The notes beneath the pieces are model-generated. The model ran no database searches and was not told where the DNA came from. It saw nothing but the letters and a program-made list of their open reading frames with translations. From the IMG/VR virus record IMGVR_UViG_3300028886_000042: DNA of 64,000 nucleotides; one strand, 5' to 3'. Every line of letters begins with the position of its first letter. Position 1 is the first letter of the stretch. Below, in pieces: positions 6,021-48,230 of this stretch. The position numbers and the translations under genes were made by a program. The DNA comes from a virus (taxonomy: Duplodnaviria; Caudoviricetes).

Positions 6021-6344
6021 TTACCTTCTTATTTCAAAAGAATATTGTATAACATTATTGGTTTCATCAGACCAACACACCGAAATATATGTTTCACCCA
6101 TTTTAAAAGTACTTATCATTCGTGTACCTCCCTCAGATGCCGAGCCTACCGCTTCTTGGTCAACCATTTTATACCCTTTACTTGACAAGTAATTAAACAT
6201 TTCTTGCTTATCCGTCGGTTGCTCCATTCTATTCATTGCATGAAGATAGAGGTTGTATGATGACTCTTTAAGTATTTTATTTACGCTTTCTTTTACGATT
6301 CTGCGTAAATTTGACTCCGTAAGTTTTATTTGTTGTTTCTTCAT
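6021..6344 (-). CDS. Small protein with LTES-type N-terminal leader (putative internal head protein)
   Basis: MKKQQIKLTESNLRRIVKESVNKILKES; TATTTAT at 6364-6370 (-). Confidence 0.7.
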   Translation of the reverse strand: MKKQQIKLTESNLRRIVKESVNKILKESSYNLYLHAMNRMEQPTDKQEMFNYLSSKGYKMVDQEAVGSASEGGTRMISTFKMGETYISVCWSDETNNVIQYSFEIRR

Positions 6345-6435
6345 AATATTCAGTTATTTAACAATAAATAGCATTAGAAGTTTATTTGTTACGTAAAAAA
6401 GTAGTATATTTGCACGTGATAAGGATAATTATGAA
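6344..6435. repeat. 92-bp divergent promoter module, copy 1 (inverted copy at 43953..44044)
   Basis: Manual alignment gives 85/92 identity; carries TATTTAT in one direction and TATATTTG in the other. Confidence 0.9.
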
Positions 6436-6643
6436 TAAGATGAGACACAATTTAAGCGAGAGTTATCTTCAGTCGCTGACTGAGCAACAAAGAATTGACG
6501 AGATGAGCCAATGGTCTGCAAGTGAATGGCAGCAGTACTATTGTCCCAATGGTACGATAACATTGGATGAATTCTTTGATGAAATATATAATAACGTAGA
6601 AAAAACTATTTCAGAGAAATATGGTGGTGATAGTGTCTGCTGA
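6431..6643 (+). CDS. Small acidic protein, putative antitoxin
   Basis: 70 aa from ATG 6431; overlaps the downstream RelE/ParE-like ORF; follows a TAnnTTTG promoter. Confidence 0.45.
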   Translation: MNKMRHNLSESYLQSLTEQQRIDEMSQWSASEWQQYYCPNGTITLDEFFDEIYNNVEKTISEKYGGDSVC

Positions 6644-7022
6644 TGTACGTAATAGCATAAGTGAATACACGAATGCTCTGACGAAATATCCTATAACAAT
6701 TGAAAGGGCGCGTCAGAAAATTGGCAATATGAAATCTGCATTACAAGCATTGGGTACTGCCATTTCAACACTGTCAGTATGCATGAACAAGGATTTGTTG
6801 CAGTCATTTGATAGCAATGGCAATCCAATGAATAAGAATCTGAAACGTTTCAACTACAAGGATGAAAGTGGTTTCCAATGGGCATTTGCTTGTTTGTATG
6901 ATTACGATAATGACACTATCACCATTCTGAAAATGATGGCAGCGTCATTGGTAAAGGAGTGCATTAGTGAATCGGTACGTCCGATATTGGAGTTCAATGA
7001 TAGACTAATGGCTATAAGATAA
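6621..7022 (+). CDS. RelE/ParE-like toxin-fold protein (putative)
   Basis: N-terminal strand plus two helices (VIVSADVRNSISEY...ARQKIGNMKSALQAL) then a beta-meander (LKRFNYK...WAFACLYD...TITILKM); size and gene pairing fit a type II TA module. Confidence 0.45.
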   Translation: MVVIVSADVRNSISEYTNALTKYPITIERARQKIGNMKSALQALGTAISTLSVCMNKDLLQSFDSNGNPMNKNLKRFNYKDESGFQWAFACLYDYDNDTITILKMMAASLVKECISESVRPILEFNDRLMAIR

Positions 7023-7149
7023 ATTAACTGAAATTGTTATCGGGGACAAGTAGTATATCATTCCATATAATTATCAGAAAAAAAAACGCCGGAAAAAATA
7101 CATTTCTCCGGCGAAAAAAAAATAACAATCTAAAAAAAATGGAAAAAAA

Positions 7150-8331
7150 TTATCTCTTATAGAATTCATCCCAAACTTCATCAGTCAGTCCACTGTCAAG
7201 GATTACAATCTTGTTCTCGTTATATCTTCTTACCATTCCGTAATTGTGTAATACCGTTAAATCACCGTATGGAGCATTATAGTTTAACATGTAATCGTAA
7301 ATATCATACAGTGTACGGTTGTTTTCAATCAGTTCATTAAGCCTGTTATCATCCATTTTAGGTAATGTAACTCTCCTCGTATACATTGAAGCTGCCTTTG
7401 CGATAAACATTACGAAATCATTCCAACTTATTCCTAGACACTGTTTGAAATCCTCTTCCTTCGCAGGTAATACATATTCAGCCAGGAGCCATTTACCGTC
7501 AGGGTCGTTGTCGTAAACCTTTGGAAAACAGTCAAGTTCTTCCTTGTAATAATCCACCTCATTATCGTTCTGTGCTATGCCGGCATTGTTTTTTGCAAGT
7601 TTTACACAAAGTTGGTCGTTATACTGATAGACTACTCTCGATGAGCCGTTGCCTATTCTTATTCCTAAATGTTGGTCACAGTATTTTAACCGTTGGGAAA
7701 AATTCGGAAGGGATGACAGAGTCTGAAAAGAAAACTCTCCGTCCTTTGCCTCAGTCAGCCTTATTATATCTTCGTTTGTCCTTAATACGAGTTTTGAAGG
7801 CTGTAGGTTTTCTATGGGTTTCGGCTTAAGTATATTCCATGTATTTCCTCCGTCAAGAGAAAACTCCCAGAATGTTTTTGACATGTGTCCTGTGCGTTTT
7901 GATATTTTCTCAAAGGTTTCTGAAGTAATAGTTCTGTATATAACTGATTTTCCGTTTCTCCTTGCACCTCCGTTCAGTGTGTCTATGGCACGTCTGAGTT
8001 CCTTTTCGCCTGCTGCACCGCTTCCGAAAAGATTAAGTGTCGATTCGATTGAATCGTTTCCGAAATTCTTGATTTTATATATAATCAGCTTATTGTCAGG
8101 TACTACGATGTTCTTGTCTGTTACAAAATTAGCACCGTTATTGTCAAATGTAGATACCTGTGATACGACATCCTGATTAGAATGTCCTCCGTTATCGGCG
8201 AACAGCGGATTGTCACCGAGATGCTTTCTTACATTCGAGCGTGTATTCAACGGTGTTATGCTTCCATCATAACGTCCTTCATTTATGACTTCCCTGACAA
8301 TGCTTTCAATAAGTTTTTTCAAGTTTTCCAT
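7150..8331 (-). CDS. Two-domain protein with C-terminal protein-kinase-like domain
   Basis: IGNGSSRVVY (Gly loop), CVKLAK, NDNE, FPKVYD, GDLTVLHNYG (catalytic loop), IVILDSG. Start MENLKKLIESIVREVINE at 8331, after TATTTAT at 8351-8357. Confidence 0.75.
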   Translation of the reverse strand: MENLKKLIESIVREVINEGRYDGSITPLNTRSNVRKHLGDNPLFADNGGHSNQDVVSQVSTFDNNGANFVTDKNIVVPDNKLIIYKIKNFGNDSIESTLNLFGSGAAGEKELRRAIDTLNGGARRNGKSVIYRTITSETFEKISKRTGHMSKTFWEFSLDGGNTWNILKPKPIENLQPSKLVLRTNEDIIRLTEAKDGEFSFQTLSSLPNFSQRLKYCDQHLGIRIGNGSSRVVYQYNDQLCVKLAKNNAGIAQNDNEVDYYKEELDCFPKVYDNDPDGKWLLAEYVLPAKEEDFKQCLGISWNDFVMFIAKAASMYTRRVTLPKMDDNRLNELIENNRTLYDIYDYMLNYNAPYGDLTVLHNYGMVRRYNENKIVILDSGLTDEVWDEFYKR

Positions 8332-8411
8332 AAAAATTATCTGATATACAATAAATATAGACTGAAAAGAGAAAAACAGTGCATATTTATTATTAAATAA
8401 GATTATAGGAA

Positions 8412-8741
8412 ATGGGTAATTATAACGAATACGGATATGACGAGGGCATGTATACACTTACAATACCTGAAGAAGCAAGGGACAAGTGGAGTGCATGGAA
8501 GAAGGAAACCCGTGAATGGAGGGAGTATATAGAAGGTCATATTGATGACAAGCATGCCGAAACGCAGTCACATGTTACAAACGAGGCCAACCGCGAGATA
8601 AACGAGATTAAGAATTCGATAGTATCTTCACGCGACTATGTTGTTGACGTAGTAAATACACGGTCTAATGAAATTAAGAGCAAGATTGACTCAAGCCGTA
8701 CAGTGATTGACAATATATGGAATGCTGTCAAGAATTTCTAA
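8412..8741 (+). CDS. Hypothetical late protein
   Basis: 109-aa helical ORF; TATTTAT at 8384-8390. Confidence 0.7.
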   Translation: MGNYNEYGYDEGMYTLTIPEEARDKWSAWKKETREWREYIEGHIDDKHAETQSHVTNEANREINEIKNSIVSSRDYVVDVVNTRSNEIKSKIDSSRTVIDNIWNAVKNF

Positions 8742-8780
8742 AGTAGAAAATAAGAAGTGATATAAACAACGGAAACTGAA

Positions 8781-9170
8781 ATGCCTAGAACATACAGACC
8801 ATACGAATATGACTATGATACGCCTTATTACGGACGAACGACTGTTATTGAGAATTATCTGAACAAGAAGTTCAGTGAAATATCAGTTGACCCGGATGAG
8901 ATAAGGGAGGTTATCGAGTCCTCAGTAAGCGAGTCACTTGGTGATGTAGACTGCAAGTTCTGTTCTGTACATCATCATATAGAGCGGGCCAAGAATGAGA
9001 TAATCGAACATGAGGGTTGCGGATGCAACTGTAATCTGGCTACAAAGGAGGATATAGCAAATGCAGTTACACAGATAAACACGCATACAGATGAGAAGTT
9101 CAATGACGTGGATTTCCTCAGTCATTTCGAAGACCTCAATCAGAAATTAGCAAATTTGAATAATCATTAA
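8781..9170 (+). CDS. Hypothetical protein
   Basis: 129-aa ORF co-oriented with its neighbours; Cys/His-rich patches. Confidence 0.7.
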   Translation: MPRTYRPYEYDYDTPYYGRTTVIENYLNKKFSEISVDPDEIREVIESSVSESLGDVDCKFCSVHHHIERAKNEIIEHEGCGCNCNLATKEDIANAVTQINTHTDEKFNDVDFLSHFEDLNQKLANLNNH

Positions 9171-9186
9171 AAAGAATTACAATACG

Positions 9187-9423
9187 ATGGCATATAACAA
9201 ATCAAACCCATTTGACTGGGGAAATACGGAACCTGCAACGGTAACAAAGGAGGAAGGTGAAAAGGATAAGTTCAACACCATCCCTACACAGAGAAATGCT
9301 TCCTATACAGAAGTTCCTGAGGAGCAGTTCATAAATACAGCATTAGACAGCTTTGTGGAAAATATTGAGGCTCCGACTCCGCAACTTAAGAAGATTTGCG
9401 GAATCGAATGTCCGAGTGCATAA
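9187..9423 (+). CDS. Hypothetical protein
   Basis: 78-aa ORF ending just before a terminator. Confidence 0.65.
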   Translation: MAYNKSNPFDWGNTEPATVTKEEGEKDKFNTIPTQRNASYTEVPEEQFINTALDSFVENIEAPTPQLKKICGIECPSA

Positions 9424-9424
9424 A

Positions 9425-9462
9425 AAGAGAAAACCGAGGCTTAAAGCTTCGGTTTCTTTTTT
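9425..9462. terminator. Bidirectional terminator
   Basis: AAACCGAGGC-TTAAA-GCTTCGGTTT with A/T tracts, between convergent genes. Confidence 0.75.
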
Positions 9463-11298: not shown

Positions 11299-11330
11299 GT
11301 TGAAAAATTGTGCAAGGAGACCCACGTGTT

Positions 11331-17096: not shown

Positions 17097-17474
17097 ATGG
17101 AACGGAAGATTGTTATAACAGAGGAAACGGAACAGAAACTGATAGGTGATATACTCACGGAAGGGTTTACACCTGACAGGGAGAAGGTTCTTATAGTAAA
17201 GGAATTCCTTGATGACGGTTTTTCACCGGTTGTTATTGACGATATTGACGCAAACGGATATCCTAAGAAGGTTAAGATGGTTAACATGGTTAGCGGGGGA
17301 CAGCCATTGAAAACAATGAGAATGAGGGAACTTCTGCTAATGCTTATGGATAAGTTTGCTCCTATGATAACCGATGAGAGTGACCGTAAGAAGTTTCTTG
17401 AAGAGATTGTAAGGGAATGGTATAGTGGGAAACTGTCAAAAAACGGCCTGTTGGCTGTTAACTTCATAAAATGA
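17097..17474 (+). CDS. Hypothetical protein with ITEE-type leader
   Basis: MERKIVITEETEQKLIGDILTE; TATTTAT at 17086-17092. Confidence 0.7.
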   Translation: MERKIVITEETEQKLIGDILTEGFTPDREKVLIVKEFLDDGFSPVVIDDIDANGYPKKVKMVNMVSGGQPLKTMRMRELLLMLMDKFAPMITDESDRKKFLEEIVREWYSGKLSKNGLLAVNFIK

Positions 17475-22413: not shown

Positions 22414-23160
22414 ATGAAACAAACTATAAAACTGTCTGAATCTAAACTCAGACACATGGTAAGGGAGGCTGTTAAACAAGAAATTGACAGAACTATAAAC
22501 GAGGTTGGTAATGGGCCGGATTTTCAAAGGAAACTTGGTGCGTTGCAAGCAAGAAAGGTTATTAATGCCGACGGTGAAACTTCTGATGAACTGTTTGATA
22601 ATCAAGCAAAAGAAGGGGGAAAAATTTATAACTATGCCAAGAATCAACGTTCATATTCAGGAAAAGACAGCGATGAATTTGGAAATACAGTAAATCCTTT
22701 GTATAAGGAATACACTAAAGGTTATCATGAATATCTTAATGCACATCCGGAAGAATTGTCTAAACGTCATAACAGATTGAGAGAACTTGGTTATTACGAC
22801 GAGTCCATTGACAGAGTAATAAAGGAATCGATTAAACATATTATCCGAGAGCATGAAGAGGATTGGTTCAATGAGGATGATACGGCATTTATAGGCAGAA
22901 CAGCAGCTTACTATGAGGATGATGATGATAGTATGTTTGTACCGGAAATGTGGACATATGACAACACACCCGATTCAAAGGATTTTGCCGGTGATGTTTT
23001 CAGATTGTCTGAAGAAGGTAAGAGCGAACTTAACTGGTGGATAAGATGTCAGAGATTTAATGAATATCAAAGGAAAAATGCATTTAACCCTAACCTTAAA
23101 AATCCCGAAGAAGAATTTGAATATCTTGTCAAAAATTTTGCTGAGGAACAAATAAGATAA
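22414..23160 (+). CDS. Protein with LSES-type leader and a second internal leader-like segment
   Basis: MKQTIKLSESKLRHMVREAVKQEIDRTINE; internal DESIDRVIKESIKHIIRE; TATTTAT at 22390. Confidence 0.7.
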   Translation: MKQTIKLSESKLRHMVREAVKQEIDRTINEVGNGPDFQRKLGALQARKVINADGETSDELFDNQAKEGGKIYNYAKNQRSYSGKDSDEFGNTVNPLYKEYTKGYHEYLNAHPEELSKRHNRLRELGYYDESIDRVIKESIKHIIREHEEDWFNEDDTAFIGRTAAYYEDDDDSMFVPEMWTYDNTPDSKDFAGDVFRLSEEGKSELNWWIRCQRFNEYQRKNAFNPNLKNPEEEFEYLVKNFAEEQIR

Positions 23161-31049: not shown

Positions 31050-31676
31050 ATGAGAAAAATCAAGATAACAGAGGAGCAGAGACAGTATGCATTAAAGGAA
31101 GGACTTGTTATTGACGTAGACAGTAATGCAACCGGTGGTGATGATGTAAAGGCTCTTGAAAAGGCAAAACAACAGGCTGTAAACGCCGGTGCAGACCCTA
31201 ATAAGGTAACATTTAAAATACCCCCAAAGACCAACGAGAGTAGGGTAATAACAAAAAGAGAACTGATTGAGAACAGGCTGAAACATTTCAAGGAGAACTC
31301 GAAACTGTATTCTGTAAGCGGCTTCACGAAAAAAATAAACGAAGATTTGACGAATAGGCAGAAAAGAAATATTTTAGGTATTACTGATGATGACGAACTG
31401 AATGCAGCAGCAGAGGCAGAGGAAAAAGAGGAACTTGAATACACTATATGGAATGCCTTAAAGGAGATGACAGGCGGAGACCCAAGAAAAACAACATTTT
31501 CTTTCGCAGATTTATGTGATATGCTTAACAGTAAATTCGGAATGAAATATGTCGGAAGTAATGATGAAAACGAATGTCATGAATTCAGTGACGGGGTTAA
31601 TAAACTTGAAATTTTCCCGAATGTATATTATCCTGAACAAGGTACATTGAGATTTTTTAATATGCACGTTTACTAA
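31050..31676 (+). CDS. Hypothetical protein with ITEE-type leader
   Basis: MRKIKITEEQRQYALKE; TATTTAT at 31015. Confidence 0.7.
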   Translation: MRKIKITEEQRQYALKEGLVIDVDSNATGGDDVKALEKAKQQAVNAGADPNKVTFKIPPKTNESRVITKRELIENRLKHFKENSKLYSVSGFTKKINEDLTNRQKRNILGITDDDELNAAAEAEEKEELEYTIWNALKEMTGGDPRKTTFSFADLCDMLNSKFGMKYVGSNDENECHEFSDGVNKLEIFPNVYYPEQGTLRFFNMHVY

Positions 31677-35188: not shown

Positions 35189-37066
35189 ATGAGTAAACAG
35201 AGTGAATATCTAAAATGTTATAATGATAAAACGAGAATATACTTCATAGAGAATTATCTTTATACGTTCAACGCAATGGAACGTAGTGAAGTTCCGTTTA
35301 TCTTATTCCCAAGGCAAAAGGAATTCTTAAAAAGCTGTGCTGAAAATTCAAATACCGTTGCAGTAAAACATAGACAGAGTGGCGTATCAACAATATCAGC
35401 AGCATGGTCATGTGGTCAGTGTACATTTGCCAGTAAAAAATCACCTGAAATAATTTTGTGTATTGCAAATAAACTTGAGCAAGCAGTCGAATTAACTAAT
35501 AAAATTGTAAATTTCCTTGACCAAGTACCAAGATGGATGTGGGGTGGTGACTATTATTCACCTGACCCGGACAGTCCAAAGAATACAAAGTCGATTTATG
35601 TAAAACGAAATAAGAATTATATAGAATTATTTAATGGTTGTAAGATTTATGCACGTGCCTCAACACCGCACGCAGCAAGAGGAATTAGTGCAGTCTCTAT
35701 TTTGATAATCGACGAATGCGCGTACATTTTATCAGATGCCATGGCATCTTATACAGCAGCAGTTGCAGCACAAAGTACAGTTTCAAATCCTAAATGTCTG
35801 ATGGTCTCTACACCAAACGGTAAAGACCAGTTGTACTATAAAACATATAGTCAGGCAGTCAGGGGAGAAAACAATTTCCATGCAGTTGAATTCAAATGGT
35901 TTCAAGACCCCCGTTATAACAGAAATCTTAGATGGTACAAGAAGGATGAAAAAACCGGTGATATAAAATGGGATGAAGACCCTGTTATTGACAGAAAGGG
36001 TAATATAGAATACAATGAAGAGCGTTGGAGGAATCTTGAGAGGGACGGATGGACACCGACTTCTCCTTGGTTTGAAAACATGTGCAAGTCATTTAATAAT
36101 GACCAGCAGAAAATTGCACAGGAGTTGTTGGTTTCATTCCTCGGTTCTTCTGATAATGTTGTTGCACCTGAAGTAATAGAAATGCATCAGAAGCAGAATG
36201 TTATTCCCATTACACCTGACTGGCCACTAAGAGACCAGTTGATAAGTGATACTTGGATTTGGAAAGACCCGATTCCGGGGCATAGGTACATATGTTCAGT
36301 AGACCCTTCCAGTGGTTCCGGTACTGACTTTACTGCAATTGAGGTAATTGATGTTGATGCAGTAGATGAAAACGGTACACCGTTCTTTGAACAGGTACTT
36401 GAGTATAACGGTAAAATAAACGGTGAGGAAGTCGGTGAGTTGGTAAACAGATATGGAAGGGTTTATAATAATGCATTAGCTGTTGTCGAAGCTTTGGGCG
36501 GTTACGGTGATGCAGTTGTATTAACCCTTATGAATCTTGGTTATCCTAATTTGTATTATGATGAAAGTACCCTTAAAAACTACACTTCAGCCATTACAGC
36601 ATCTAAATTCAATAAAAAGGCGGGTGAAGCATTACCGGGATTCAGAAGTAACGGATTAAGAATACAGATGATTTCAAATTTTGTTGAAATGCTTAAAAAT
36701 GATTCATTCAGGGTAAGGAGTATGAGGGTTATCAGTGAATTGGAAACATGGATATTCAAGAATGGCCGACCAGACCATCAGGATGGTATGTGTGATGACC
36801 TGCTTACCTGTCTCGCAATGGGCTTGTTCGTTGCTGTATTCTATATGCTAAGAAATGAAAGAAAAAAAGCAAAGGATTCTCAGATTGTCAAGTCATGGTA
36901 TGTGAATAATGCTAATAATTCGGATTTCCGTTCATCAAAACTTGAAAACAGGATGATTATATCTTCCCCAAGGAAAATGCCTTTTTACAGTAATTCGCAG
37001 ATTGAGAAAAGGGAAAGGGCGAGATTCAATGCCATGCTTCTTTTAGGCGGTTTTAAGAGACATTAA
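35189..37066 (+). CDS. terL: Terminase large subunit (T4 gp17-like)
   Basis: LFPRQ, KHRQSGVST (Walker A), ILIIDE (Walker B), VSTPNG, VDPSSG, HQDGMCDD. Confidence 0.93.
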   Translation: MSKQSEYLKCYNDKTRIYFIENYLYTFNAMERSEVPFILFPRQKEFLKSCAENSNTVAVKHRQSGVSTISAAWSCGQCTFASKKSPEIILCIANKLEQAVELTNKIVNFLDQVPRWMWGGDYYSPDPDSPKNTKSIYVKRNKNYIELFNGCKIYARASTPHAARGISAVSILIIDECAYILSDAMASYTAAVAAQSTVSNPKCLMVSTPNGKDQLYYKTYSQAVRGENNFHAVEFKWFQDPRYNRNLRWYKKDEKTGDIKWDEDPVIDRKGNIEYNEERWRNLERDGWTPTSPWFENMCKSFNNDQQKIAQELLVSFLGSSDNVVAPEVIEMHQKQNVIPITPDWPLRDQLISDTWIWKDPIPGHRYICSVDPSSGSGTDFTAIEVIDVDAVDENGTPFFEQVLEYNGKINGEEVGELVNRYGRVYNNALAVVEALGGYGDAVVLTLMNLGYPNLYYDESTLKNYTSAITASKFNKKAGEALPGFRSNGLRIQMISNFVEMLKNDSFRVRSMRVISELETWIFKNGRPDHQDGMCDDLLTCLAMGLFVAVFYMLRNERKKAKDSQIVKSWYVNNANNSDFRSSKLENRMIISSPRKMPFYSNSQIEKRERARFNAMLLLGGFKRH

Positions 37067-38381: not shown

Positions 38382-38478
38382 CGGTATAGACATCCCATCG
38401 GTACATATTCAATATGCTGATGGGATTTTTTTTGTTTTTATGCAACTATTTATTATTAAATACAAATAAGAATAGAAT

Positions 38479-39087
38479 ATGAAGAATAGAATAAGAATAA
38501 CAGAGAGTGACCTTCATAGAATTGTGAAAGAGTCTGTGAAAAGAGTATTGAGGGAATCAGCACATAGAACTATTGACAAAAAACAACGTCTAACTGAGGA
38601 TATTTATGTTGGAAATGGTGGTGGGTATTATGGTGGTTCTGCCATCTTTACAGTTAGAATGGAAGGTGATATGCCGACAAGTTATGAATTTAGTCCAAAA
38701 GGATGGGACTTTGATACAAAATCACAATTAGAGGCTGCTGCTGTATGTGCTTCTGCAAATAAGGGATTTCTTGAACAAATGAAAAACTCAGAATTGACAC
38801 AATTACCGGTTGTTCCGACTACCGAAGATGATAAGGCAAATGCACTATATTGGCTAACCGGTGGCAATGCTGAATGGAATCACGGATATTGGGCAGAAGG
38901 CGGTGTTCATTGGGGGGAAGCAGAGGAAATATTATTAAATGACACTGATATAATGGGACTATTGGATGATGCAATCTCTAATTCAAGCAATTTTTATGAA
39001 TTAGTCATAAATCTTAAAAGAGGTGAGTATATGCAGTATGCAGCAGATGTCATCCCAACTAACGACTATGATGAGGATGAGTATTAA
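38479..39087 (+). CDS. Leader-bearing cassette protein 1
   Basis: MKNRIRITESDLHRIVKESVKRVLRES; TATTTAT at 38447. Confidence 0.75.
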   Translation: MKNRIRITESDLHRIVKESVKRVLRESAHRTIDKKQRLTEDIYVGNGGGYYGGSAIFTVRMEGDMPTSYEFSPKGWDFDTKSQLEAAAVCASANKGFLEQMKNSELTQLPVVPTTEDDKANALYWLTGGNAEWNHGYWAEGGVHWGEAEEILLNDTDIMGLLDDAISNSSNFYELVINLKRGEYMQYAADVIPTNDYDEDEY

Positions 39088-39112
39088 ACCGCAATTAAAC
39101 CAACTCTAATCT

Positions 39113-39156
39113 CAGACCATTTGTGTACTAAGCCGATAGACTTTAAAAACATATAT
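39113..39156 (+). repeat. Conserved 44-bp 3' module, copy 1
   Basis: CAGACCATTT-14nt-TAGACTTTAAAAACATATAT; 36/44 identical to 39589..39632. Confidence 0.85.
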
Positions 39157-39229
39157 GAGCGAATCCATCCGGTTCGCTTGTTTTTTTTTTATTCAACTAT
39201 TTATTATTAAATACAATAAGAATATAATA

Positions 39230-39577
39230 ATGAAGAATAGAATAAGATTAACAGAATCAGACCTTCACAGAATTGTGAAAGAATCAGTAAATATGATATT
39301 ATCTGAAGCCAATAACCATTTAATATCAGTTGGAGGCATAGAAGACACTCCATTTACACGTAATAACAATAAAGGCTCTAATAGCATTAGAATAAATGGT
39401 GTGTTTAATACAACCAATTATAGCAATAACCCATCACGTGCGGCTATTGAGATGATGCAAGACAAATTACCATTTGATGAATTTATCGATTATTGCGAAC
39501 AACGCGGAATTAACCCATATGATTATATTGATACTAATGATTTTGAGGTAGAACAATGGATAGAAGATTACATATAG
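39230..39577 (+). CDS. Leader-bearing cassette protein 2
   Basis: MKNRIRLTESDLHRIVKESVNMILSE; TATTTAT at 39198; start at 39230. Confidence 0.75.
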   Translation: MKNRIRLTESDLHRIVKESVNMILSEANNHLISVGGIEDTPFTRNNNKGSNSIRINGVFNTTNYSNNPSRAAIEMMQDKLPFDEFIDYCEQRGINPYDYIDTNDFEVEQWIEDYI

Positions 39578-39588
39578 GTTTAATTGAG

Positions 39589-39632
39589 CAGACCATTTAC
39601 GAACAAGTCCAGTAGACTTTAAAAACATATAT
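39589..39632 (+). repeat. Conserved 44-bp 3' module, copy 2
   Basis: See 39113..39156; followed by a terminator hairpin. Confidence 0.85.
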
Positions 39633-39721: not shown

Positions 39722-41764
39722 ATGCCAACAAAACCAACAATATTTCAGAGGCTTACTAATATACTTTCAAACAGTAATAATATACAGGGTGCTGTTAAAA
39801 AGGTAAATTCCTACGGTATAAACGATTCTGATATATTATTCCGTACTAATAACAAGGAAGAGTATGACAGTAAGTTAAAGGAACTCAGGCAGCAGCATTT
39901 GCTTGCTAAGCAGTGGAAGAAGGCGAACTATGACCTTACCAACAAGTCACTTGCCGGACTGAATGAAGTAAAGATGATGTACCGTGATGCAGACCTGATG
40001 GACTGTTTCCCTGAAATCGGTACTGCGCTTGATATAGTATCTGAGGAGGCATGTTTCGTGAAGGAGTTTATGGTTAACGTGACTTCCAAATCCGAACGTG
40101 TAAAATCAATTTTACAGGATTTGCTTGTAAACCGCTTGCAGATTAATATTATGCTTCCTATGGTATGCAGAAGTATGGCTAAGTACGGTAACACGTTCAT
40201 GCTTCTTGAGATAAATGAGGAAAACGGTGTTGTGAATTGGAGACAGTTACCGGTTTATGAGTTGGAGAGGTATGAAAACGGTATGGAAAATCCATATGCA
40301 AATGCTTATGTTAATCTGAATAATATAGACCTTAATCAGACGGATTCCACTAAATTTGTTTGGGTAGGTCAGACTGAATTCACGCCTTACAGAAACTGGC
40401 AGATAGCACATTTCAGACTGCTTTATGATTCGATATTCCTGCCATACGGTACGAGTTTTCTACAGAAGGCAAGAAGGCACTGGCGTATGTTGTCCATGAT
40501 GGAGGACATGATGCTTATATACAGAATGGAACGTTCAATTGAAAGACGTGTATTCAAGATAAACGTAGGTACGATTGATGATAAGGATGTTCCTGCTTAT
40601 GTTGAGGACATTGCAAACAACTTCAAACGTACACCTATTATAGACCCTCTGACAGGACAGTTGGACTTGAAGAAAAACATACTTAATGTATCTGAGGATT
40701 TCTTCATACCTGTACGTGATGATAATGCAAGCAACCCTATAGATACGTTGCAGGGAGCACAGAACATGACTGCGATGGATGACATAAAATTCATACAGAA
40801 TAAAGTATGTACAGCACTGAGAATACCCAAATCATATCTGAATTTCGAGGAAACCACCGGTGACGGTAAGAACCTTTCGTTACTTGACGTAAGATTCATG
40901 CGTACAGTAAACAGAATACAGCAGTCGTTGTTAATGGAACTGAATAAAATCTGTATCATACACCTTTATCTTTTAGGATTTGAAGATGAACTTACGAATT
41001 TCACTCTTACCATGAATAATCCTTCTTCACAGGCTGAAATGCTTGAGCTGGAAAACATGGCAAAGAAAATAACAACAGCAAAGGATGCTATTTCTGATGC
41101 CGGTAACGGAATACAGCTTATGTCATGGACGAGGGCATGTAAGCAGATTCTCGGTTGGTCTGATAAGGAAATTGAGGAAAACTTGCAGGAAATCAGACTT
41201 GAAAAGGCACTTGCGGCAGAGTTGGAGAAAACCGCACAGATTATCAAGCGTACTAATATATTCGATAAGGTTGACAATATATACGGCGAACCCGGTGCTG
41301 AATACTCGGAAGAGCCTGTAGGCGGTGAAGACGGTCAGGGCGGTATGGGCGGTGGAGCCGGCGGTATCGGTGGAGGTACTATAGGAGGCGGTGATTTCGA
41401 CTTCGGTGACGAAGGCGGTGACGAAATGGGTGCAGAAGGTGAAATGGGCATGGATGCAGCAGCCGATGAAATGACTCCTGAGCAGGGAGGAGCACCTGAA
41501 GCAGGAAACGAGCCTATACCTCCTATGGGAGAAGATTATCTCGGAAGGCTGTTCAAGAAGATGATTAACGAACAGCATGAGGTGCAGAAGGATATAGCGA
41601 GAAAGGGAAAGAAATACAGTGACAGACTGAAGGAGCGTAAGGAGAAATATGATATATCAAACCGTATAAACGAGAACGTACCGATATATCAGAAGAATTT
41701 CCTGATAAATGAGGATTTAAATTCGATGATTAAGCAGCTTGATGAAATTAACGCTAAGAAATAA
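39722..41764 (+). CDS. Portal protein (T4 gp20-like)
   Basis: PEIGTALDI, LSMMEDMMLIYR..RSIERRVFKINVG, EDFFIPVR, IDTLQGA, DDIKF, ALRIPKSYL. Confidence 0.93.
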   Translation: MPTKPTIFQRLTNILSNSNNIQGAVKKVNSYGINDSDILFRTNNKEEYDSKLKELRQQHLLAKQWKKANYDLTNKSLAGLNEVKMMYRDADLMDCFPEIGTALDIVSEEACFVKEFMVNVTSKSERVKSILQDLLVNRLQINIMLPMVCRSMAKYGNTFMLLEINEENGVVNWRQLPVYELERYENGMENPYANAYVNLNNIDLNQTDSTKFVWVGQTEFTPYRNWQIAHFRLLYDSIFLPYGTSFLQKARRHWRMLSMMEDMMLIYRMERSIERRVFKINVGTIDDKDVPAYVEDIANNFKRTPIIDPLTGQLDLKKNILNVSEDFFIPVRDDNASNPIDTLQGAQNMTAMDDIKFIQNKVCTALRIPKSYLNFEETTGDGKNLSLLDVRFMRTVNRIQQSLLMELNKICIIHLYLLGFEDELTNFTLTMNNPSSQAEMLELENMAKKITTAKDAISDAGNGIQLMSWTRACKQILGWSDKEIEENLQEIRLEKALAAELEKTAQIIKRTNIFDKVDNIYGEPGAEYSEEPVGGEDGQGGMGGGAGGIGGGTIGGGDFDFGDEGGDEMGAEGEMGMDAAADEMTPEQGGAPEAGNEPIPPMGEDYLGRLFKKMINEQHEVQKDIARKGKKYSDRLKERKEKYDISNRINENVPIYQKNFLINEDLNSMIKQLDEINAKK

Positions 41765-42984: not shown

Positions 42985-42996
42985 TTTTTTCTTATA

Positions 42997-43027: not shown

Positions 43028-43067
43028 TCTGAATGAGCCGTTAACGGGCAGTCATTGGTTTGGTGGC

Positions 43068-43934
43068 TCATTTTTCATTTGTTAATGGACTAAACAAAGT
43101 AAGAAATGTTATATCCTTTGGGTCAAACGTTTCCAATAATGCTTCTGCTGAATCAGAAATAGTCTTTCCACTTGTTACTGTATCATCAAGCACAAGTACT
43201 CGCTTTCCGTTAATGTCATTGGCTAATTCCAAATTACTTTTCACTTCATCAGAGATGTACATTGACTGAATTACGTATTGTCTATATTTTTCTTCAATAT
43301 ATTTGTATGAAAAAACCCCATCGTTTTTACGGTTCATTTTCATTATTGACCTTTCTATTTCTTTCTTACAATCCCTAAATTCTTCGTCTGTATTAGTCAT
43401 TTGGGCAATAAGGTCATCATCTATCATATAGTCAAGAACATAATTTGCATCATACTTTTTAAAGAAATCCTTTATTGCTTTCTCATGTGGAATAATTCTT
43501 TCAACTATACCAAAAATCCTATTATTAAGTTGATTATTAGATGGTGTTGTGATTATCACATCAAAATTCTCATTCAATTCTTTCGTGACAGCAACAAATC
43601 TGCGTAATAACGCCATTAAATCATAATGTTCATCTCTAAACCCCCAATCTTTATGTCCCTTTAAAGCCTTTATTAATGGGTTTGAATCATATCTGTCATT
43701 TGTCTTCTTTCTTGTGAATACAGAAATAACTTTATAGCCGTTGACATTATTGTAAATTGGATATGGATTCCAAGGGTCATTAGTATCAACATATTCTTGG
43801 TGATTAGGATTAAAGCCAACAGTATGCGGAATAGAATCAGTATCTATATCTATTCCTTCTATTACTTTCTGAACAGCCTCTTTTACAACTTCCTTCAGCT
43901 CATTTTCGGTTAGTCTTATCTGTTTCTTCCCCAT
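43068..43934 (-). CDS. Phosphoribosyltransferase-domain protein with LTEN leader
   Basis: MGKKQIRLTENELKEVVKEAVQKVIE; PRPP-binding loop VLVLDDTVTSGKT; IITTPS. Confidence 0.8.
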   Translation of the reverse strand: MGKKQIRLTENELKEVVKEAVQKVIEGIDIDTDSIPHTVGFNPNHQEYVDTNDPWNPYPIYNNVNGYKVISVFTRKKTNDRYDSNPLIKALKGHKDWGFRDEHYDLMALLRRFVAVTKELNENFDVIITTPSNNQLNNRIFGIVERIIPHEKAIKDFFKKYDANYVLDYMIDDDLIAQMTNTDEEFRDCKKEIERSIMKMNRKNDGVFSYKYIEEKYRQYVIQSMYISDEVKSNLELANDINGKRVLVLDDTVTSGKTISDSAEALLETFDPKDITFLTLFSPLTNEK

Positions 43935-43952
43935 ATACAGTACAGTTTATCG

Positions 43953-44044
43953 TTCATAATTATCCAAACCACGTGCAAATATACTACTTTTTCATGTAAC
44001 AAATAAACTTCTAAAGTTATTTATTGTTAAATAACTGAATATTA
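43953..44044. repeat. 92-bp divergent promoter module, copy 2 (inverted)
   Basis: Reverse complement matches 6344..6435 at 85/92. Confidence 0.9.
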
Positions 44045-44718: not shown

Positions 44719-44765
44719 TATATTTATACGGATATAGTCATATTTATTAAAAAAGATTTTTTTCA

Positions 44766-45959
44766 ATGAAAAAGATACAGAATAAGGAACAGCTTGTAGA
44801 AATTAAGAAGGGACAGACAGGTTACGGACTGCTTATAGAGAATGACGGTCATATCACAGGAAAACCGGATATGATAAATCAGATTAAGGAGGATATTGAC
44901 AATAACCATAAATTTGTCATACCTGATGACTTTATAGTGTCGGCAGTATTTCAGAAATACGGTATAAAAAACGCAAACGGAAGAATCTATCCTGAGGATG
45001 TACTGAGAAGGGAAGTACAGAAATATTTGGAGACGAGAGTTGCCATGCATAATGCAATCGGGGCCTTAGACCATCCATCTTGTCAACTTGCAGATACACA
45101 AATATTTACAGAAAAAGGTTGGAAATATATAAGTGATGTTGAAGTTGGTGAGAATATACTTACGGTTACAGAAGATAAGAAAATCGAAATTAAACCTGTT
45201 TTACGTAAGATAGATGAACCGTATAAAGGAAAACTCATCCATTTAAAGGGTAGATTTATTGATATTAAGGTAACACCTAATCATCGTTTTCCTGTATTAG
45301 ACCGTAACCAGAAATGGAAAGGATTTTATACTGCACAGGATATATTGGACGGTAATGTACCTGACCAAAATCATTCATATTTTTTCAAAGTCGGCGAATG
45401 GAAGGGTGAAGAAGATAGTGAATTTGTTGTTAATGCATTAACAGATGCTGAAGTTACTGAAGAGGACTATGAAGGACGTGTATATTGTGTTGAGGTTGAA
45501 AACCATACTTTTTACACAATGTGCAATGACGGACATTGTTTATGGTCAGGTAATTCATCGAGCTTATCCGGTCATGATGTAACACATAATATCTTGGATT
45601 TAAGGTGGGAAAAGAATACACTTGTAGGAGAAATGAAACTTCATCTGTCACCCGGTTATAAAAAATATGGTATTTGTTCAACAAGTGGTGATTTGGTTGC
45701 TAATATGATACTTGACGGCATTCTTATAGGTGTATCTTCGAGAGGTGTAGGAAGTGTTGAACAAAAGTTCGGAACTACCTTAGTATCAGACGATTATGAG
45801 TTAATTTGTTGGGACGTTGTTATCGAAAATTCAACACCGGGTGCTTATATTAAAACTAACCCTGAAGACTTAAAGCCTTTTATAGAAGGTGATTTATCTA
45901 AAAATGGTGAACTTTTAAACGAAAAAATCAAAAAATTAGGTAAGATTTTGAATCTTTAG
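44766..45959 (+). CDS. Prohead protease (T4 gp21-like) containing an intein
   Basis: KNANGRIYP, GALDHP, GVSSRGVGS, WDVV..STPGA. Confidence 0.92.
   Translation: MKKIQNKEQLVEIKKGQTGYGLLIENDGHITGKPDMINQIKEDIDNNHKFVIPDDFIVSAVFQKYGIKNANGRIYPEDVLRREVQKYLETRVAMHNAIGALDHPSCQLADTQIFTEKGWKYISDVEVGENILTVTEDKKIEIKPVLRKIDEPYKGKLIHLKGRFIDIKVTPNHRFPVLDRNQKWKGFYTAQDILDGNVPDQNHSYFFKVGEWKGEEDSEFVVNALTDAEVTEEDYEGRVYCVEVENHTFYTMCNDGHCLWSGNSSSLSGHDVTHNILDLRWEKNTLVGEMKLHLSPGYKKYGICSTSGDLVANMILDGILIGVSSRGVGSVEQKFGTTLVSDDYELICWDVVIENSTPGAYIKTNPEDLKPFIEGDLSKNGELLNEKIKKLGKILNL
45081..45554 (+). mobile_element. 158-aa mini-intein in the prohead protease
   Basis: Block A CQLADTQIFTEKGW, block B VTPNHRF, block F/G YEGRVYCVEVENHTFY...WSGN followed by Ser; no endonuclease domain. 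Confidence 0.9.
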
Positions 45960-46015
45960 CATAATCCTATACTATTTATTGTAAATCTGCAACATATTTG
46001 CAGATAAAAAATAGT

Positions 46016-47221
46016 ATGTTTAAAGAAGATTATATTAAACGAGCACGGGAGATACATGGTGATAACTATGATTACAGTCAATTACCCGAAGAATTTAAAG
46101 GAACTGATAAAATCACAATTATTTGCAAAGAACACGGCCCGTTTGTTCAAATTGCAAGAAACCATATAAGTGTACAGCATTCAGGTTGTCCCATTTGCGG
46201 AAGAAAACGTGCAAATAGTAAATTAACAGATACTTTCGAAGAATTTGTTAAAAAGGCAAGAAAAGTACATGGTGAAAACTTTGAATATATTGAAAGTAGT
46301 TTCAAAAAAACCGGTTCTAAATTAAAGATAAAATGTAACAAATGTGGGAAAATATTCGAACAAACAGGTTCTATGCATTTATCCGGCAATGGGTGCTCAC
46401 ATTGCAATCCACCACATAAAAAGCGAACGACAGAAGATTTCGCTGCTGAACTTGCTATAACTCATCCAAATCTGGAACTGCTAAGTGAATATGTTAATAC
46501 AAATACACCTATTACTGTTAGATGTAAAATACATGACTATACTTATCAAACAACACCCCATCGTTTAAAACAGGGGGCAAATTGTCAAAAATGTTATGAT
46601 GATAGAAGAAGTGTAACTAATAGAAAACCTATTGAAAAAATACTTGAAGAAGTAGAAAAAATTCATGGGGATAAATATATTTTACCTTATATCAATACAG
46701 AGTACATAAACTCTAAGACAAAATTAACATGTAAATGCAAACACGGACATGAATTTAAAATTACTCTAAATAAACTGATAAACAGAGAACAGGGTTGTCC
46801 TATCTGTAATGAAAGTCATCTTGAGGAGAAAATCTCACTTTTAATCCCATCATTTGAGCGAAATAAGCATTATGACTGGCTTAAAAATCCAAAAACTAAT
46901 TGTATGTTAACATTAGATTCCTATGATGAAAAACTTAATGTAGCAATAGAATGTCAGGGAGACCAACATTTCAAACCGTATGAAATATGGGGTGGGGAAG
47001 TTTCATTTAAAAAGAACATTGAGCGTGACATTATTAAAAATAGGTTATGCAAAGAACATGGTACAAAATTAATTTATGTAATCCCTAAATCATACAAAAA
47101 TAAATTAAATGAAGAGAAATATAAGGGAATATATACTGACGATAATGTATTCTTTATTGAAGATATAGAAAAAGATTGCACAGATTTCATTAATATGATA
47201 TATGATTCTCAAAAAAAGTAA
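46016..47221 (+). CDS. Homing-type endonuclease with Zn-ribbon repeats and C-terminal PD-(D/E)xK domain
   Basis: Repeated ICKEHG...GCPIC units; LTLDSY...AIECQGDQH...RDIIKNRLC. Confidence 0.75.
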   Translation: MFKEDYIKRAREIHGDNYDYSQLPEEFKGTDKITIICKEHGPFVQIARNHISVQHSGCPICGRKRANSKLTDTFEEFVKKARKVHGENFEYIESSFKKTGSKLKIKCNKCGKIFEQTGSMHLSGNGCSHCNPPHKKRTTEDFAAELAITHPNLELLSEYVNTNTPITVRCKIHDYTYQTTPHRLKQGANCQKCYDDRRSVTNRKPIEKILEEVEKIHGDKYILPYINTEYINSKTKLTCKCKHGHEFKITLNKLINREQGCPICNESHLEEKISLLIPSFERNKHYDWLKNPKTNCMLTLDSYDEKLNVAIECQGDQHFKPYEIWGGEVSFKKNIERDIIKNRLCKEHGTKLIYVIPKSYKNKLNEEKYKGIYTDDNVFFIEDIEKDCTDFINMIYDSQKK

Positions 47222-47261
47222 CTATATATCTACTACATAATGCAGTCCGAAATTTATCTAA

Positions 47262-48230
47262 ATGGCAAGAAAGGTGAAAATAACAGAGGAAGTTTATAAT
47301 GCGTATCTTAACGGTGGTAGTGTAAGAAAGTCAATAATTGACGAGGCTTTGCATTACCCTTATTTTTTGGATGACCTGAAAGCAGAGGCAGAATTCTGTA
47401 TTAATGAAGAAGTACATTCAATGATGAAAAACAATGAGGTTGAAAGAACATTCAATCCTGTTTTGAGGGCTAATCAATATTTCAAGAATATAACAGTAAC
47501 ACTTAAACTGTTATATAATGAGGATATAGACACTAATGAGAATTATCATGGCTCTGCTAATTCAGATGAAACTTTGGAAGATAATCTTCTGAAAAATGCA
47601 TTTCTTGATTTTACATTTCCGGTATCATATACAAAAGAGCTGAATACAGGAAAGATGGATATGGCAATAGGACATGAGATAGGTCATCTGTATGATGATT
47701 ACAGTGATTTACTACGTGGCGGTAAGGGTGTATTCAACAGAGAAAGTACACCGTCAAAGAAAACAATCCTTTTCAATAAAACAAGAATATCCCGTGACAA
47801 ACTCTTGAATGCAATAGGTTCAATAGCATACTTGTCCATATATACTGAAAGCAATTCATTTACAGCACAGATAAAGGATGAACTAAAGGGGCTAAAGGCA
47901 ACTCATGATAATATACAGGATAAGTTCAAGGAGACGGTATCTTATCAAAATCTAAGAAAAACAGAAGATGAGTTTAATGATATTATAGACAAGTATACTG
48001 AAATTGAATTATTTCATACAAACTCAAGAATACTTAATGATTATGGCAATACTGATATACCTAAAATGAACAAATATGATTTTAACGGGGAAAAATACAG
48101 AGTAATGCTTAAGAGGTGGGCTGACAGGGTTTTGAGGAAACTTGCAAATAGATACAGGGGTGTTGTTCAGTTATATAAAGATGAATTAACTGAAAGTTAT
48201 TATACCAATAATTGTTTCATTGTTTTCTAG
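47262..48230 (+). CDS. Gluzincin-like HExxH protein with ITEE leader
   Basis: MARKVKITEE; IGHEIGHLYDDY...ESNSFTAQI; distant paralog of 3715..4635. Confidence 0.6.
   Translation: MARKVKITEEVYNAYLNGGSVRKSIIDEALHYPYFLDDLKAEAEFCINEEVHSMMKNNEVERTFNPVLRANQYFKNITVTLKLLYNEDIDTNENYHGSANSDETLEDNLLKNAFLDFTFPVSYTKELNTGKMDMAIGHEIGHLYDDYSDLLRGGKGVFNRESTPSKKTILFNKTRISRDKLLNAIGSIAYLSIYTESNSFTAQIKDELKGLKATHDNIQDKFKETVSYQNLRKTEDEFNDIIDKYTEIELFHTNSRILNDYGNTDIPKMNKYDFNGEKYRVMLKRWADRVLRKLANRYRGVVQLYKDELTESYYTNNCFIVF

What the first reader, a model, noticed from the sequence alone, without database searches (positions are those of the whole stretch)
6021..48230. Candidate capsid-targeting leader system delivering diverse effector cargoes
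Unrelated proteins across the window begin with the same leader: IKLTESNLRRIVKESV (6344-), IKLSESKLRHMVREAV (22414), IRITESDLHRIVKESV (38479), IRLTESDLHRIVKESV (39230) and IRLTENELKEVVKEAV (43934-). Looser versions are IVITEE (17097), IKITEE (31050), VKITEE (47262) and KLIESIVREVINE (8331-). The leader usually ends in hydrophobic-x-E (LKE, INE, LRE, LSE, VIE) just before the payload, and most of these genes follow TATTTAT. Established: T4 gp21 cleaves after Glu in L/I-x-E, and T4 internal proteins use a short cleaved capsid-targeting sequence. A gp21-like protease is encoded here, and the capsid protein has LIYE/A near residue 60. Inference: a portable amphipathic-helix tag loads kinase, PRTase, peptidase and unknown domains into the prohead for proteolytic maturation and injection, giving a modular host-takeover or anti-defence arsenal.
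Basis: partly seen in the sequence, partly recalled or inferred. Interest (0 to 1): 0.85.

Follow-up and report, generated by a model that had tools for sequence, protein, structure and literature searches.

The report
Shared leader helix on phage proteins
A giant T4-like phage of rumen Prevotella, and its relatives, put the same 26-residue helix in front of thousands of otherwise unrelated small proteins, most likely as a label that loads them into the virus head and is then cut off, though neither step has been shown.

Summary
Five window genes (starts 6344-, 22414+, 38479+, 39230+, 43934-) begin with one helix, M-x-K-K-x-I-[KR]-[IL]-T-E-S-x-L-x-R-[IV]-V-K-E-[SA]-V-x-x-[IV]-L-x-E. A profile of it finds 5814 protein clusters.

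In 116 copies, conservation falls from about 4 bits to 0.6 right after [IV]-L-x-E. Codons vary freely, so selection acts on the protein.

The phage has a T4-type head module: portal, intein-split gp21-family protease, acidic scaffold-like protein and gp23-type capsid protein. Leader genes cluster beside these genes. They favour the TATTTAT box that also precedes head genes.

A T4-like capsid-targeting and cleavage tag is therefore the best reading, at about 0.45. No packaging or cleavage data exist.

- The four "looser" copies fail the profile.
- Kinase and peptidase cargoes are unsupported. Only the PRTase is recognisable, and it has a host-type promoter.
- Most cargoes are small unknown proteins.
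- The helix also occurs inside proteins, between modules.
- Three Prevotella isolates carry one chromosomal copy each.

The scan has already noted this motif elsewhere in this genome, and similar tags in other jumbo phages.

The parts
6264..6344 (-). Leader (27 aa, ends ILKE) of the 107-aa gene 6021-6344
   Evidence: (HMM E 7e-18)
22414..22503 (+). Leader (30 aa, ends TINE, with a 4-residue insertion) of the 248-aa gene 22414-23160. The cargo belongs to the common 'IGDT/GQ..LG' helical family.
   Evidence: (E 5e-11)
22813..22863 (+). Weak internal second copy of the core helix (RVIKESIKHIIRE) inside gene 22414-23160
   Evidence: E 0.055. The same position holds a core-helix copy in homologues L005 and L150.
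38479..38556 (+). Leader (26 aa, ends VLRE) of the 202-aa gene 38479-39087, between terminase and portal
   Evidence: (E 1e-17)
39230..39307 (+). Leader (26 aa, ends ILSE) of the 115-aa gene 39230-39577, immediately upstream of the portal gene
   Evidence: (E 9e-19)
43857..43934 (-). Leader (26 aa, ends KVIE) of the 288-aa ComF/ShosT-like phosphoribosyltransferase gene 43068-43934
   Evidence: (E 1e-12)
43976..43983 (-). Bacteroidota-type -7 promoter box TAnnTTTG upstream of the PRTase gene. This gene has no TATTTAT box.
38427..38465 (+). Shared 39-nt promoter segment containing TATTTAT (38447-38453). Second copy at 39178-39216 (92% identical).
39113..39156 (+). 44-nt 3' element shared by the two tandem cassettes. 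Second copy at 39589-39632 (82% identical).
35189..37066 (+). Terminase large subunit, TATTTAT at -41
39722..41764 (+). gp20-type portal protein, TATTTAT at -28
44766..45959 (+). gp21-family prohead protease (Peptidase_S77) interrupted by an intein, TATTTAT at -25
48368..49807 (+). Acidic scaffold-like protein at the gp22 position. Its N-terminal helices end in MISE|A, and residues 38-56 weakly resemble the leader core.
   Evidence: (E 0.15)
49863..51767 (+). gp23-type major capsid protein with candidate maturation site LIYE|A at residue 60
17097..17474 (+). 'Looser' gene beginning MERKIVITEE. Not a strict leader.
31050..31676 (+). 'Looser' gene beginning MRKIKITEE...ALKE|G. Homologues with the same start occur in IMG/VR loci L197 and L207.
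47262..48230 (+). 'Looser' gene beginning MARKVKITEE, between protease and scaffold genes. Contains HEIGH, with no family match.
7150..8331 (-). 'Looser' gene beginning MENLKKLIESIVREVINE|G. Not significant against the leader HMM. Matches phrog_4301 (unknown function).

Best explanation
The 26-27-residue leader consists of a short extended I-R-L segment, a T-E-S-D helix cap and an 18-residue helix ending in [IV]-L-x-E. It most likely works like the capsid-targeting sequence of T4 internal proteins, in four steps:
1. Late in infection, tagged proteins are made from TATTTAT promoters.
2. The helix docks them to the assembling prohead core (scaffold-like protein, protease and core proteins).
3. 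The gp21-family protease, which acts inside the prohead, cuts after the terminal Glu.
4. The freed small cargo proteins stay in the head and enter the next host cell with the DNA.

Core-helix copies inside longer proteins would act as cut marks that release several modules from one chain.

Shown here: the motif, its position, its sharp boundary, protein-level selection, its portability, its linkage to head genes and its promoter bias. Inferred: docking, cleavage, packaging, injection and any anti-defence role.
For: (1) Five strict copies in the window. There are more than 118 IMG/VR loci, nearly all with the motif 4-5 residues after Met, and 5814 clusters at E<=1e-3.

(2) Information content is about 4 bits per column up to the Glu of [IV]-L-x-E, then 0.65 bits. 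Ser5 is encoded by TCA 42 times and AGT 38 times, and GAA/GAG is near 1:1, so conservation is at the protein level.

(3) The same genome encodes a Peptidase_S77 protease, a gp23-type capsid protein, a gp20-type portal and an acidic scaffold-like protein. The 412-, 348-, 295- and 225-kb relatives that carry the leader also have the protease.

(4) The predicted capsid-protein maturation site is [IL]-x-E|AT (LIYE|A, LLKE|A). This is the same type of site as the leader end.

(5) In three complete relatives, leader genes abut the protease gene. Of 118 leader loci averaging 8 kb, 42 hold a head-module gene, against about 12% expected (p 3e-11).

(6) TATTTAT precedes the portal, protease, terminase, scaffold and tail-fibre-like genes. 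It precedes 74/145 leader genes against 182/582 other ORFs (p 1.6e-5). The host-type -7 box precedes 3/145 against 66/582 (p 2e-4).

(7) The tag is portable. The IGDT cargo family occurs with the leader, or without it. Cargoes are unrelated, and 87 of 93 have no Pfam hit. This matches T4 Ip proteins, which share only the leader (PMC12373910, PMC3012670).

(8) AlphaFold places the leader as a helix: residues 10-22 in the PRTase and 9-32 in gene 22414. In the PRTase model (pLDDT 89) it lies outside the PRTase core; the gene-22414 model is low-confidence (pLDDT 57).
Against: - There are no virion proteomics, no N-terminal mapping and no cultured relative. A tblastn search of cultured-phage records found nothing.
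- The only tagged enzyme, the PRTase, has a host-type promoter and no TATTTAT. Its whole family keeps an N-terminal helix that drifts with the protein. An 81%-identical protein is named by its source as from a 2.9-Mb Pseudoprevotella muciniphila contig.
- Three Prevotella/Segatella isolates carry one tagged gene each in ordinary chromosomal context.
- Among the top 152 hits, 119 have two or three copies. This selection is biased by summed scores. T4's CTS is only N-terminal.
- The residue after the Glu is varied (I, G and D most common), not the small residue recalled from memory for T4 sites.
- All faces of the helix are conserved, which suggests more than a loose amphipathic tag.
- There is no sequence similarity to T4's MKTYQEFIAE.
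- In other genomes of this scan, similar bold readings were later priced low, and one such tag turned out to be linked to an enzyme.
Confidence: 0.45

Rival explanations
1. The helix is a docking or assembly module for a shared partner outside the capsid. The partner could be a phage or host hub protein, a chaperone, or the Lon-like ATP-dependent protease at 14633-17050, or the helices could bind each other. It would recruit or regulate many variable small proteins in the cytoplasm.
For: - All faces of the helix are conserved, including polar residues H8, K12, E13, S14 and N16.
- Internal and repeated copies are common.
- The PRTase family keeps the helix as an inherited part of the protein and has a host-type promoter.
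- Tagged genes exist in bacterial chromosomes.
- A comparable tag in another phage proved to be enzyme-linked (e1-127136).
Against: - No enzyme or hub family is enriched next to leader genes. The enriched neighbours are portal, terminase, protease, scaffold and capsid genes.
- The late-type promoter bias and the conserved terminal L-x-E are not explained by this reading.
Confidence: 0.25
2. The helix is only an extended recognition and cut site for a protease, which splits chains of small modules. Any capsid localisation would come from other features or would not occur.
For: - Core copies ES.L.R[IV]VKES[VI]..[IV]L.E sit between modules.
- Internal full copies are often preceded by x-E-S-[KR].
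- The boundary after Glu is sharp.
Against: - About 89% of the proteins examined start with the leader (135/152), and most IMG/VR copies are single and N-terminal. Cutting a 26-residue piece off a one-module protein needs another reason.
- By analogy with T4 (from knowledge of that system, not tested here), the gp21-family protease acts in the prohead, so its substrates would have to be there anyway. This folds the rival back into the main reading.
Confidence: 0.12
3. The conserved segment is mainly a DNA-level recombination handle: promoter plus first codons, with a 3' element. It would let phages swap cassettes, as with the mobile regulatory cassettes of T4-type phages (a comparison recalled from memory). 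The peptide itself would have little function.
For: The two tandem cassettes at 38427-39156 and 39178-39632 share 39 nt (92%) and 71 nt (82%) at the 5' end and a 44-nt 3' element. Cargo families occur with and without the leader.
Against: - Across 116 copies the amino acids are kept while codons differ, including TCA and AGT for the same Ser.
- The upstream DNA is only AT-rich, not conserved.
- Internal copies lack any promoter.
Confidence: 0.06
4. The leader is a secretion or membrane-targeting signal.
For: It is N-terminal and sits on many unrelated small proteins.
Against: It has no hydrophobic core and no lipobox. It is a charged helix with about equal acidic and basic residues. True signal peptides occur on other window genes, such as 17580, 18175 and 37215.
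Confidence: 0.03

Closest known systems
Capsid-targeting sequence (CTS) of phage T4 internal proteins IPI, IPII and IPIII, removed by the gp21 prohead protease
   Same: - A short N-terminal leader is the only similarity among otherwise unrelated, fast-changing small proteins (PMC12373910; PMC3012670).
- The leader ends in hydrophobic-x-Glu.
- The genome encodes a gp21-family protease, a scaffold-like protein and a gp23-type capsid protein.
- The genes follow a putative late promoter that they share with the head genes.
   Different: - No sequence similarity to MKTYQEFIAE.
- 26-27 residues rather than 10.
- 9-20 tagged genes per complete genome and 5814 clusters overall, against 3 in T4 and about 10 known in T-even phages.
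- Frequent internal and tandem copies.
- Copies in host chromosomes.
- Packaging and cleavage are untested.
Proteolytic maturation of ejection and head proteins in giant phages (phiKZ, 201phi2-1, SPN3US)
   Same: Many head-internal proteins are cut by a prohead protease at x-x-Glu motifs, with propeptides removed (PMC7411985, PMC10052503).
   Different: Those phages use a different protease lineage and S/A/G-x-E sites (recalled from memory). A single near-invariant leader shared by unrelated cargo is not described for them.
Polyvalent proteins of phages and conjugative elements (Iyer et al. 2017, PMC5512222)
   Same: Modular chains of conflict-related domains, thought to be delivered with the DNA and processed. 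The window holds an ART-PolyVal plus nucleotidyltransferase protein at 26581-28695.
   Different: Leader proteins are small (median 132 aa) and have 1-3 modules without known domains. The ART-PolyVal protein itself lacks the leader.
Shared leader tags noted by this scan in other jumbo phages (e1-5340821, e1-5368238, e1-5373611, e1-370441)
   Same: The same general design: one N-terminal tag on dozens of unrelated small late proteins of uncultured jumbo phages, read as CTS-like.
   Different: This tag has its own sequence, its own Prevotella/rumen range and its internal 'punctuation' copies.

Membership tests
T4-type capsid-targeting sequence / internal-protein system | The same short leader at the N-terminus of otherwise unrelated proteins | tested here: met
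T4-type capsid-targeting sequence / internal-protein system | The leader ends at a gp21-type site (Leu/Ile-x-Glu) | tested here: met
   [IV]-L-x-E is kept in 107/116 copies, and conservation ends there. This is sequence evidence only.
T4-type capsid-targeting sequence / internal-protein system | A gp21-family protease, scaffold core and gp23-type capsid protein in the same genome | tested here: met
   The scaffold is assigned only by position and composition.
T4-type capsid-targeting sequence / internal-protein system | Sequence homology to the T4 CTS (MKTYQEFIAE) | tested here: not met
   No resemblance on direct comparison with the consensus
T4-type capsid-targeting sequence / internal-protein system | Proteins are physically present in proheads and virions | not testable with these tools
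   No cultured relative and no proteomics
T4-type capsid-targeting sequence / internal-protein system | The leader is removed by the prohead protease | not testable with these tools
   Needs N-terminal mapping or an in vitro assay
T4-type capsid-targeting sequence / internal-protein system | Late expression together with the head genes | tested here: inconclusive
   The TATTTAT box is shared with head genes and enriched on leader genes. Its timing is inferred. The PRTase gene has a host-type box instead.
Leader-plus-maturase systems (RiPP-like; radical-SAM tag seen elsewhere in the scan) | A modifying enzyme family encoded next to most tagged genes | tested here: not met
   Neighbour clustering of 118 loci gives head genes and unknown families, with no enzyme family
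Polyvalent proteins (PMC5512222) | Large chains of 2-15 recognisable conflict domains | tested here: not met
   Only 6 of 93 leader proteins have any Pfam hit. Median length is 132 aa.
Sec/Tat/lipoprotein signal peptides | Hydrophobic core, with or without a lipobox or twin arginine | tested here: not met
   The sequence is a charged amphipathic helix
Type I phosphoribosyltransferases, ComF/ShosT-like (cargo of gene 43068-43934) | PRTase fold and PRPP-binding loop | tested here: met
   Pfam Pribosyltran E 9.5e-8. The model (pLDDT 89) matches ComF at Z 10.2 over 155 residues (rmsd 3.2) and ShosT at Z 8.3 over 180 residues (rmsd 5.3).

The most novel reading that the evidence does not exclude
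The helix is a combined address-and-cut signal. With it, a whole clade of Prevotella jumbo phages would load strings of small, fast-evolving proteins into the head and release them there. The 5814 clusters would then be by far the largest known set of phage-injected proteins.

As a further twist, some Prevotella hosts have captured single tagged genes that still carry the phage TATTTAT box. Such genes would be switched on only by an infecting phage, and their products could ride into its progeny capsids as a Trojan-horse defence.
Probability: 0.3. Interest if true: 0.8.

Novelty: new variant of a known kind. Interest (0 to 1): 0.6.

Why it matters
If the tag does load cargo into capsids, one short profile would list the injected-protein repertoire of an abundant group of rumen and gut phages. 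These are thousands of small proteins of unknown function and would be prime candidates for anti-defence factors.

It would also give a natural, portable tag for packaging foreign proteins in Bacteroidota phages.

The internal copies would show that T4-type head proteases can process multi-module precursors. The host-borne copies would open the question of whether bacteria exploit a phage's own address label.

If the reading is wrong, the helix is still one of the most widespread and best conserved unexplained peptide modules in phage proteins.

Tried and rejected
- No whole genome is held for the window, so copies outside the window could not be counted. The window's contig was not found in IMG/VR.
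- Megablast of the head region against cultured-phage records gave no match. A tblastn search with the leader gave no match either.
- A literature search for motif strings gave 0 papers. Reviews on jumbo phages do not mention such a leader.
The Pseudoprevotella muciniphila PRTase locus could not be fetched by the search for related loci or by a DNA pattern, so its context is unknown.
- The ESM Atlas gave nothing for the domain upstream of internal leaders. jackhmmer showed that these upstream domains are not one family.
- An HMM built from the PRTase-family N-termini was too weak to detect 'degenerate' leaders in the window.
- The word-based search for long tagged proteins found none. The near-length search gave 30 hits, none with Pfam domains.
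- Similarity between the leader and the N-terminus of the scaffold-like protein is only a hint (E 0.06-0.97, at different positions in the orthologues). I do not count it as evidence.
- Chance or low complexity as an explanation is rejected.
- RNA-level or translation-start optimisation is rejected as the main cause, because internal copies exist and Ser switches between codon families.
Full report
**What is in the window**

The window is part of an uncultured tailed phage; its proteins map to a contig of about 209 kb. The phage has a T4-type head module:
- terminase large subunit at 35189-37066
- gp20-type portal at 39722-41764
- a Peptidase_S77 (gp21-family) prohead protease at 44766-45959, split by an intein
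- a very acidic 479-aa protein at the gp22 (scaffold) position, 48368-49807
- a gp23-type major capsid protein at 49863-51767

Several HNH homing endonuclease genes lie among these. The nearest cultured relatives of the portal are Microcystis and Flavobacterium myophages at about 36% identity. Leader matches in genome collections fall almost only in rumen Prevotellaceae and Bacteroidales assemblies, so a Prevotella-like host is likely.

**Check of the observation**

Five genes start with the same sequence, at exactly the stated coordinates. A degenerate DNA pattern for the motif hits 4 times in the window and never in 100 shuffles. An HMM built from 46 copies hits exactly these five ORFs, at E 9e-19 to 5e-11.

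The four 'looser' genes (17097, 31050, 47262, 8331) exist as described but do not match that HMM. Three of them share only a start of the form M-x-[RK]-K-[IV]-x-I-T-E-E. A broad regex covering that start gave 14 hits in the six frames; 8 of them lie 4-6 residues after the start of real genes (the five strict genes and these three). By my rough estimate, about 0.01 such N-terminal hits would be expected by chance. A DNA pattern for this start finds 48 IMG/VR loci from many biomes, including homologues of window genes 31050 and 31678.

In the PRTase family the N-terminal helix grades from the strict form through I-T-E-E forms to unrecognisable ones. The looser genes may therefore belong to a wider and older class, but this cannot be shown statistically here.

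**How widespread the leader is, and at what level it is conserved**

They lie on contigs of up to 412 kb. In nearly all of them the motif begins 4-5 residues after Met, and the consensus is MNKKL-IRLTESDLHRIVKESVNRILNE.

A five-sequence profile finds 5814 cluster representatives at E<=1e-3 among 1.84 billion, and 259 at E<=1e-10.

In 116 distinct copies, information content is near 4 bits per column. This includes positions the search pattern left free (S5, D6, H8, S14, and I/V18-L19-x-E21). It drops to 0.65 bits in the column after the Glu.

Codons vary freely. The same Ser is TCA 42 times and AGT 38 times, Leu uses both codon families, and GAA/GAG is about 1:1. The upstream DNA is only AT-rich. 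Selection therefore acts on the peptide.

**Cargo**

Of 93 tagged proteins of 170 aa or more, 87 have no Pfam hit. None of the 30 hits in the word-based search has one either. The median tagged protein is 132 aa. Median cargo is about 100 aa, with mixed pI and few I, L or V residues.

No family supports the 'kinase' (7150-8331) or the 'peptidase' (47262-48230), and neither gene carries the strict leader.

The one clear enzyme is the PRTase at 43068-43934. Pfam gives Pribosyltran. The AlphaFold model has pLDDT 89. Its best structural matches are ComF (Z 10.2) and the defence toxin ShosT (Z 8.3). The leader helix (residues 10-22) lies outside the PRTase core.

**Portability and internal copies**

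The commonest cargo, a helical 'IGDT...GQ..LG' module that includes window gene 22414, occurs in two arrangements:
- behind the leader
- leaderless, starting M-x-x-I-N-E-I-G-D-T, and then followed by E-S-K-T-MNKKL-leader and a second, unrelated cargo

Among the 152 top hits, 135 start with the leader and 119 hold two or three copies. This set is biased by summed scores. Internal copies are often only the core ES.L.R[IV]VKES[VI]..[IV]L.E. Full internal copies are often preceded by x-E-S-[KR].

The helix therefore punctuates modules, which fits a processing signal. The two tandem genes at 38479 and 39230 also share promoter DNA and a 44-nt 3' element, so cassette exchange probably spreads the tag.

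**Link to head assembly**

Complete relatives of 412, 348 and 295 kb carry 12, 20 and 9 profile matches. Each has the S77 protease. In each, tagged genes lie directly beside the protease, scaffold and capsid genes. By my count, about 8 of 35 tagged genes lie within 5 kb of that block, against 1.5 expected (Poisson p about 2e-4).

Clustering all neighbours of the 118 IMG/VR loci gives these as the commonest neighbour families:
- portal, 26 loci
- terminase, 21 loci
- protease, 16 loci
- scaffold-like, 15 loci
- capsid, 22 loci
- homologues of window genes 41794 and 44290, which sit at the gp67/gp68 position

No enzyme family stands out. In all, 42 of 118 loci hold a head gene, against about 12% expected (p 3e-11). 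The loci come from related phages, so these p-values overstate independence.

**Promoters**

TATTTAT lies 25-41 nt upstream of the portal, protease, terminase, scaffold and tail-fibre-like genes. It also precedes four of the five leader genes.

In relatives it precedes 74/145 leader genes and 182/582 other ORFs (p 1.6e-5). The Bacteroidota -7 box TAnnTTTG precedes 3/145 and 66/582 (p 2e-4). That TATTTAT is a late promoter is inferred from the genes it accompanies.

**Cleavage-site parallel**

Mature T4 gp23 residue 28 aligns with residue 72 of this capsid protein. Upstream of that point lies LIYE|ATASDNSG, which is conserved as [IL]-x-E|AT (LIYE or LLKE) in four relatives. This is the same kind of site as the leader's ILKE, ILNE and VLRE ends. 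The helical N-terminal region of the scaffold-like protein ends in LLSE|DDD or MISE|AND.

**What speaks against the capsid reading**

- Nothing shows packaging or cutting, and no cultured relative exists.
- The PRTase gene has a good host-type promoter. Its source names an 81%-identical protein from a 2.9-Mb Pseudoprevotella muciniphila contig. I could not fetch that locus.
- Segatella bryantii DSM 11371, Prevotella sp. MA2016 and Prevotella sp. tf2-5 each hold exactly one tagged gene. These sit among ordinary chromosomal genes with no head genes nearby. Two of them keep a TATTTAT box at -39 and -27.
- The residue after the Glu is varied.
- T4's CTS is much shorter and strictly N-terminal (PMC3012670).
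- Earlier work in this scan found that one similar tag belongs to a radical-SAM enzyme. Later checks priced the bold capsid readings of other similar tags low.

**Verdict**

The motif is real, very widespread and under strong protein-level selection. The best-supported mechanism is a T4-like address-and-cut tag for prohead loading (0.45).

The rivals are:
- a docking helix for a non-virion partner (0.25)
- a pure processing site (0.12)
- a recombination handle (0.06)
- a secretion signal (0.03)

It is a new variant of a known kind, not a member of the T4 CTS family by sequence. The scan has already flagged this same motif in other windows of this genome, and comparable tags in other jumbo phages.

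Noticed in passing
L143:6932-7195 (+), L149:5795-6823 (-), L151:53-874 (-): Three cultured Prevotella/Segatella isolates each carry exactly one leader-tagged gene in ordinary chromosomal surroundings: GH2, a UmuC-like polymerase, an IS1595-type transposase, a HigBA-like pair and sulfatase-family genes. Two of the genes keep the phage-style TATTTAT box. They could be captured phage genes or a host 'Trojan horse'.
   Followed up: partly
window 44766-45959: The prohead protease gene is interrupted by an intein (Pfam Intein_splicing, residues 118-250). Relatives have it with (607 aa) or without (231-236 aa) the intein.
   Followed up: partly
window 45998-47221, 52021-53694, 53691-55211: Three HNH homing endonuclease genes are wedged among the protease, scaffold and capsid genes. 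In relatives the portal, terminase and capsid ORFs are lengthened, probably by inteins or HNH insertions.
   Followed up: no
G015:C1:163148-163366 (L170), G003:C1:58291-58521, G001:C1:368983-369315: ORFs of 206-225 aa in related phages share only the first 90 or so residues of the major capsid protein, that is the propeptide and N-arm (41-43% identity). This may be a second targeting module or a truncated capsid paralogue.
   Followed up: partly
window 6621-7022 (+) and L143:6251-6625 (-): In the phage and in S. bryantii, the gene lying divergently next to a leader gene starts with the same M-V-(V)-I-V-S-x-D-V-R-N. The rest of the two proteins is unrelated (E 0.02 for the pair). This may be another short N-terminal tag, or chance.
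   Followed up: partly
L174-L221; window 31050, 47262, 17097: N-termini of the form M-x-K-K-[IV]-x-I-T-E-E-x-L-K-x-[IL]-[IV] occur in phage contigs from many biomes. Homologues of window gene 31678 carry M-P-K-K-I-F-I-T-E-E in relatives, although the window copy does not.
   Followed up: partly
window 43068-43934 (-): The tagged PRTase is ComF/ShosT-like by fold. It has 112 homologues, some on contigs of 300-550 kb. An 81%-identical protein is named from Pseudoprevotella muciniphila.
   Followed up: partly
window 26581-28695 (+): A 704-aa protein with ART-PolyVal, PARP-like and nucleotidyltransferase matches follows a TATTTAT box but has no leader. It starts MPAYSILSE|ING.
   Followed up: no
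window 39113-39156 and 39589-39632: A 44-nt element (82% identical between copies) follows both tandem leader genes, just before their terminators. Its function is unknown.
   Followed up: partly
window 14633-17050 (+): An 805-aa Lon-like ATP-dependent protease (phrog_4871, E 6e-175) is encoded by the phage. It is a conceivable alternative reader of the tag.
   Followed up: no
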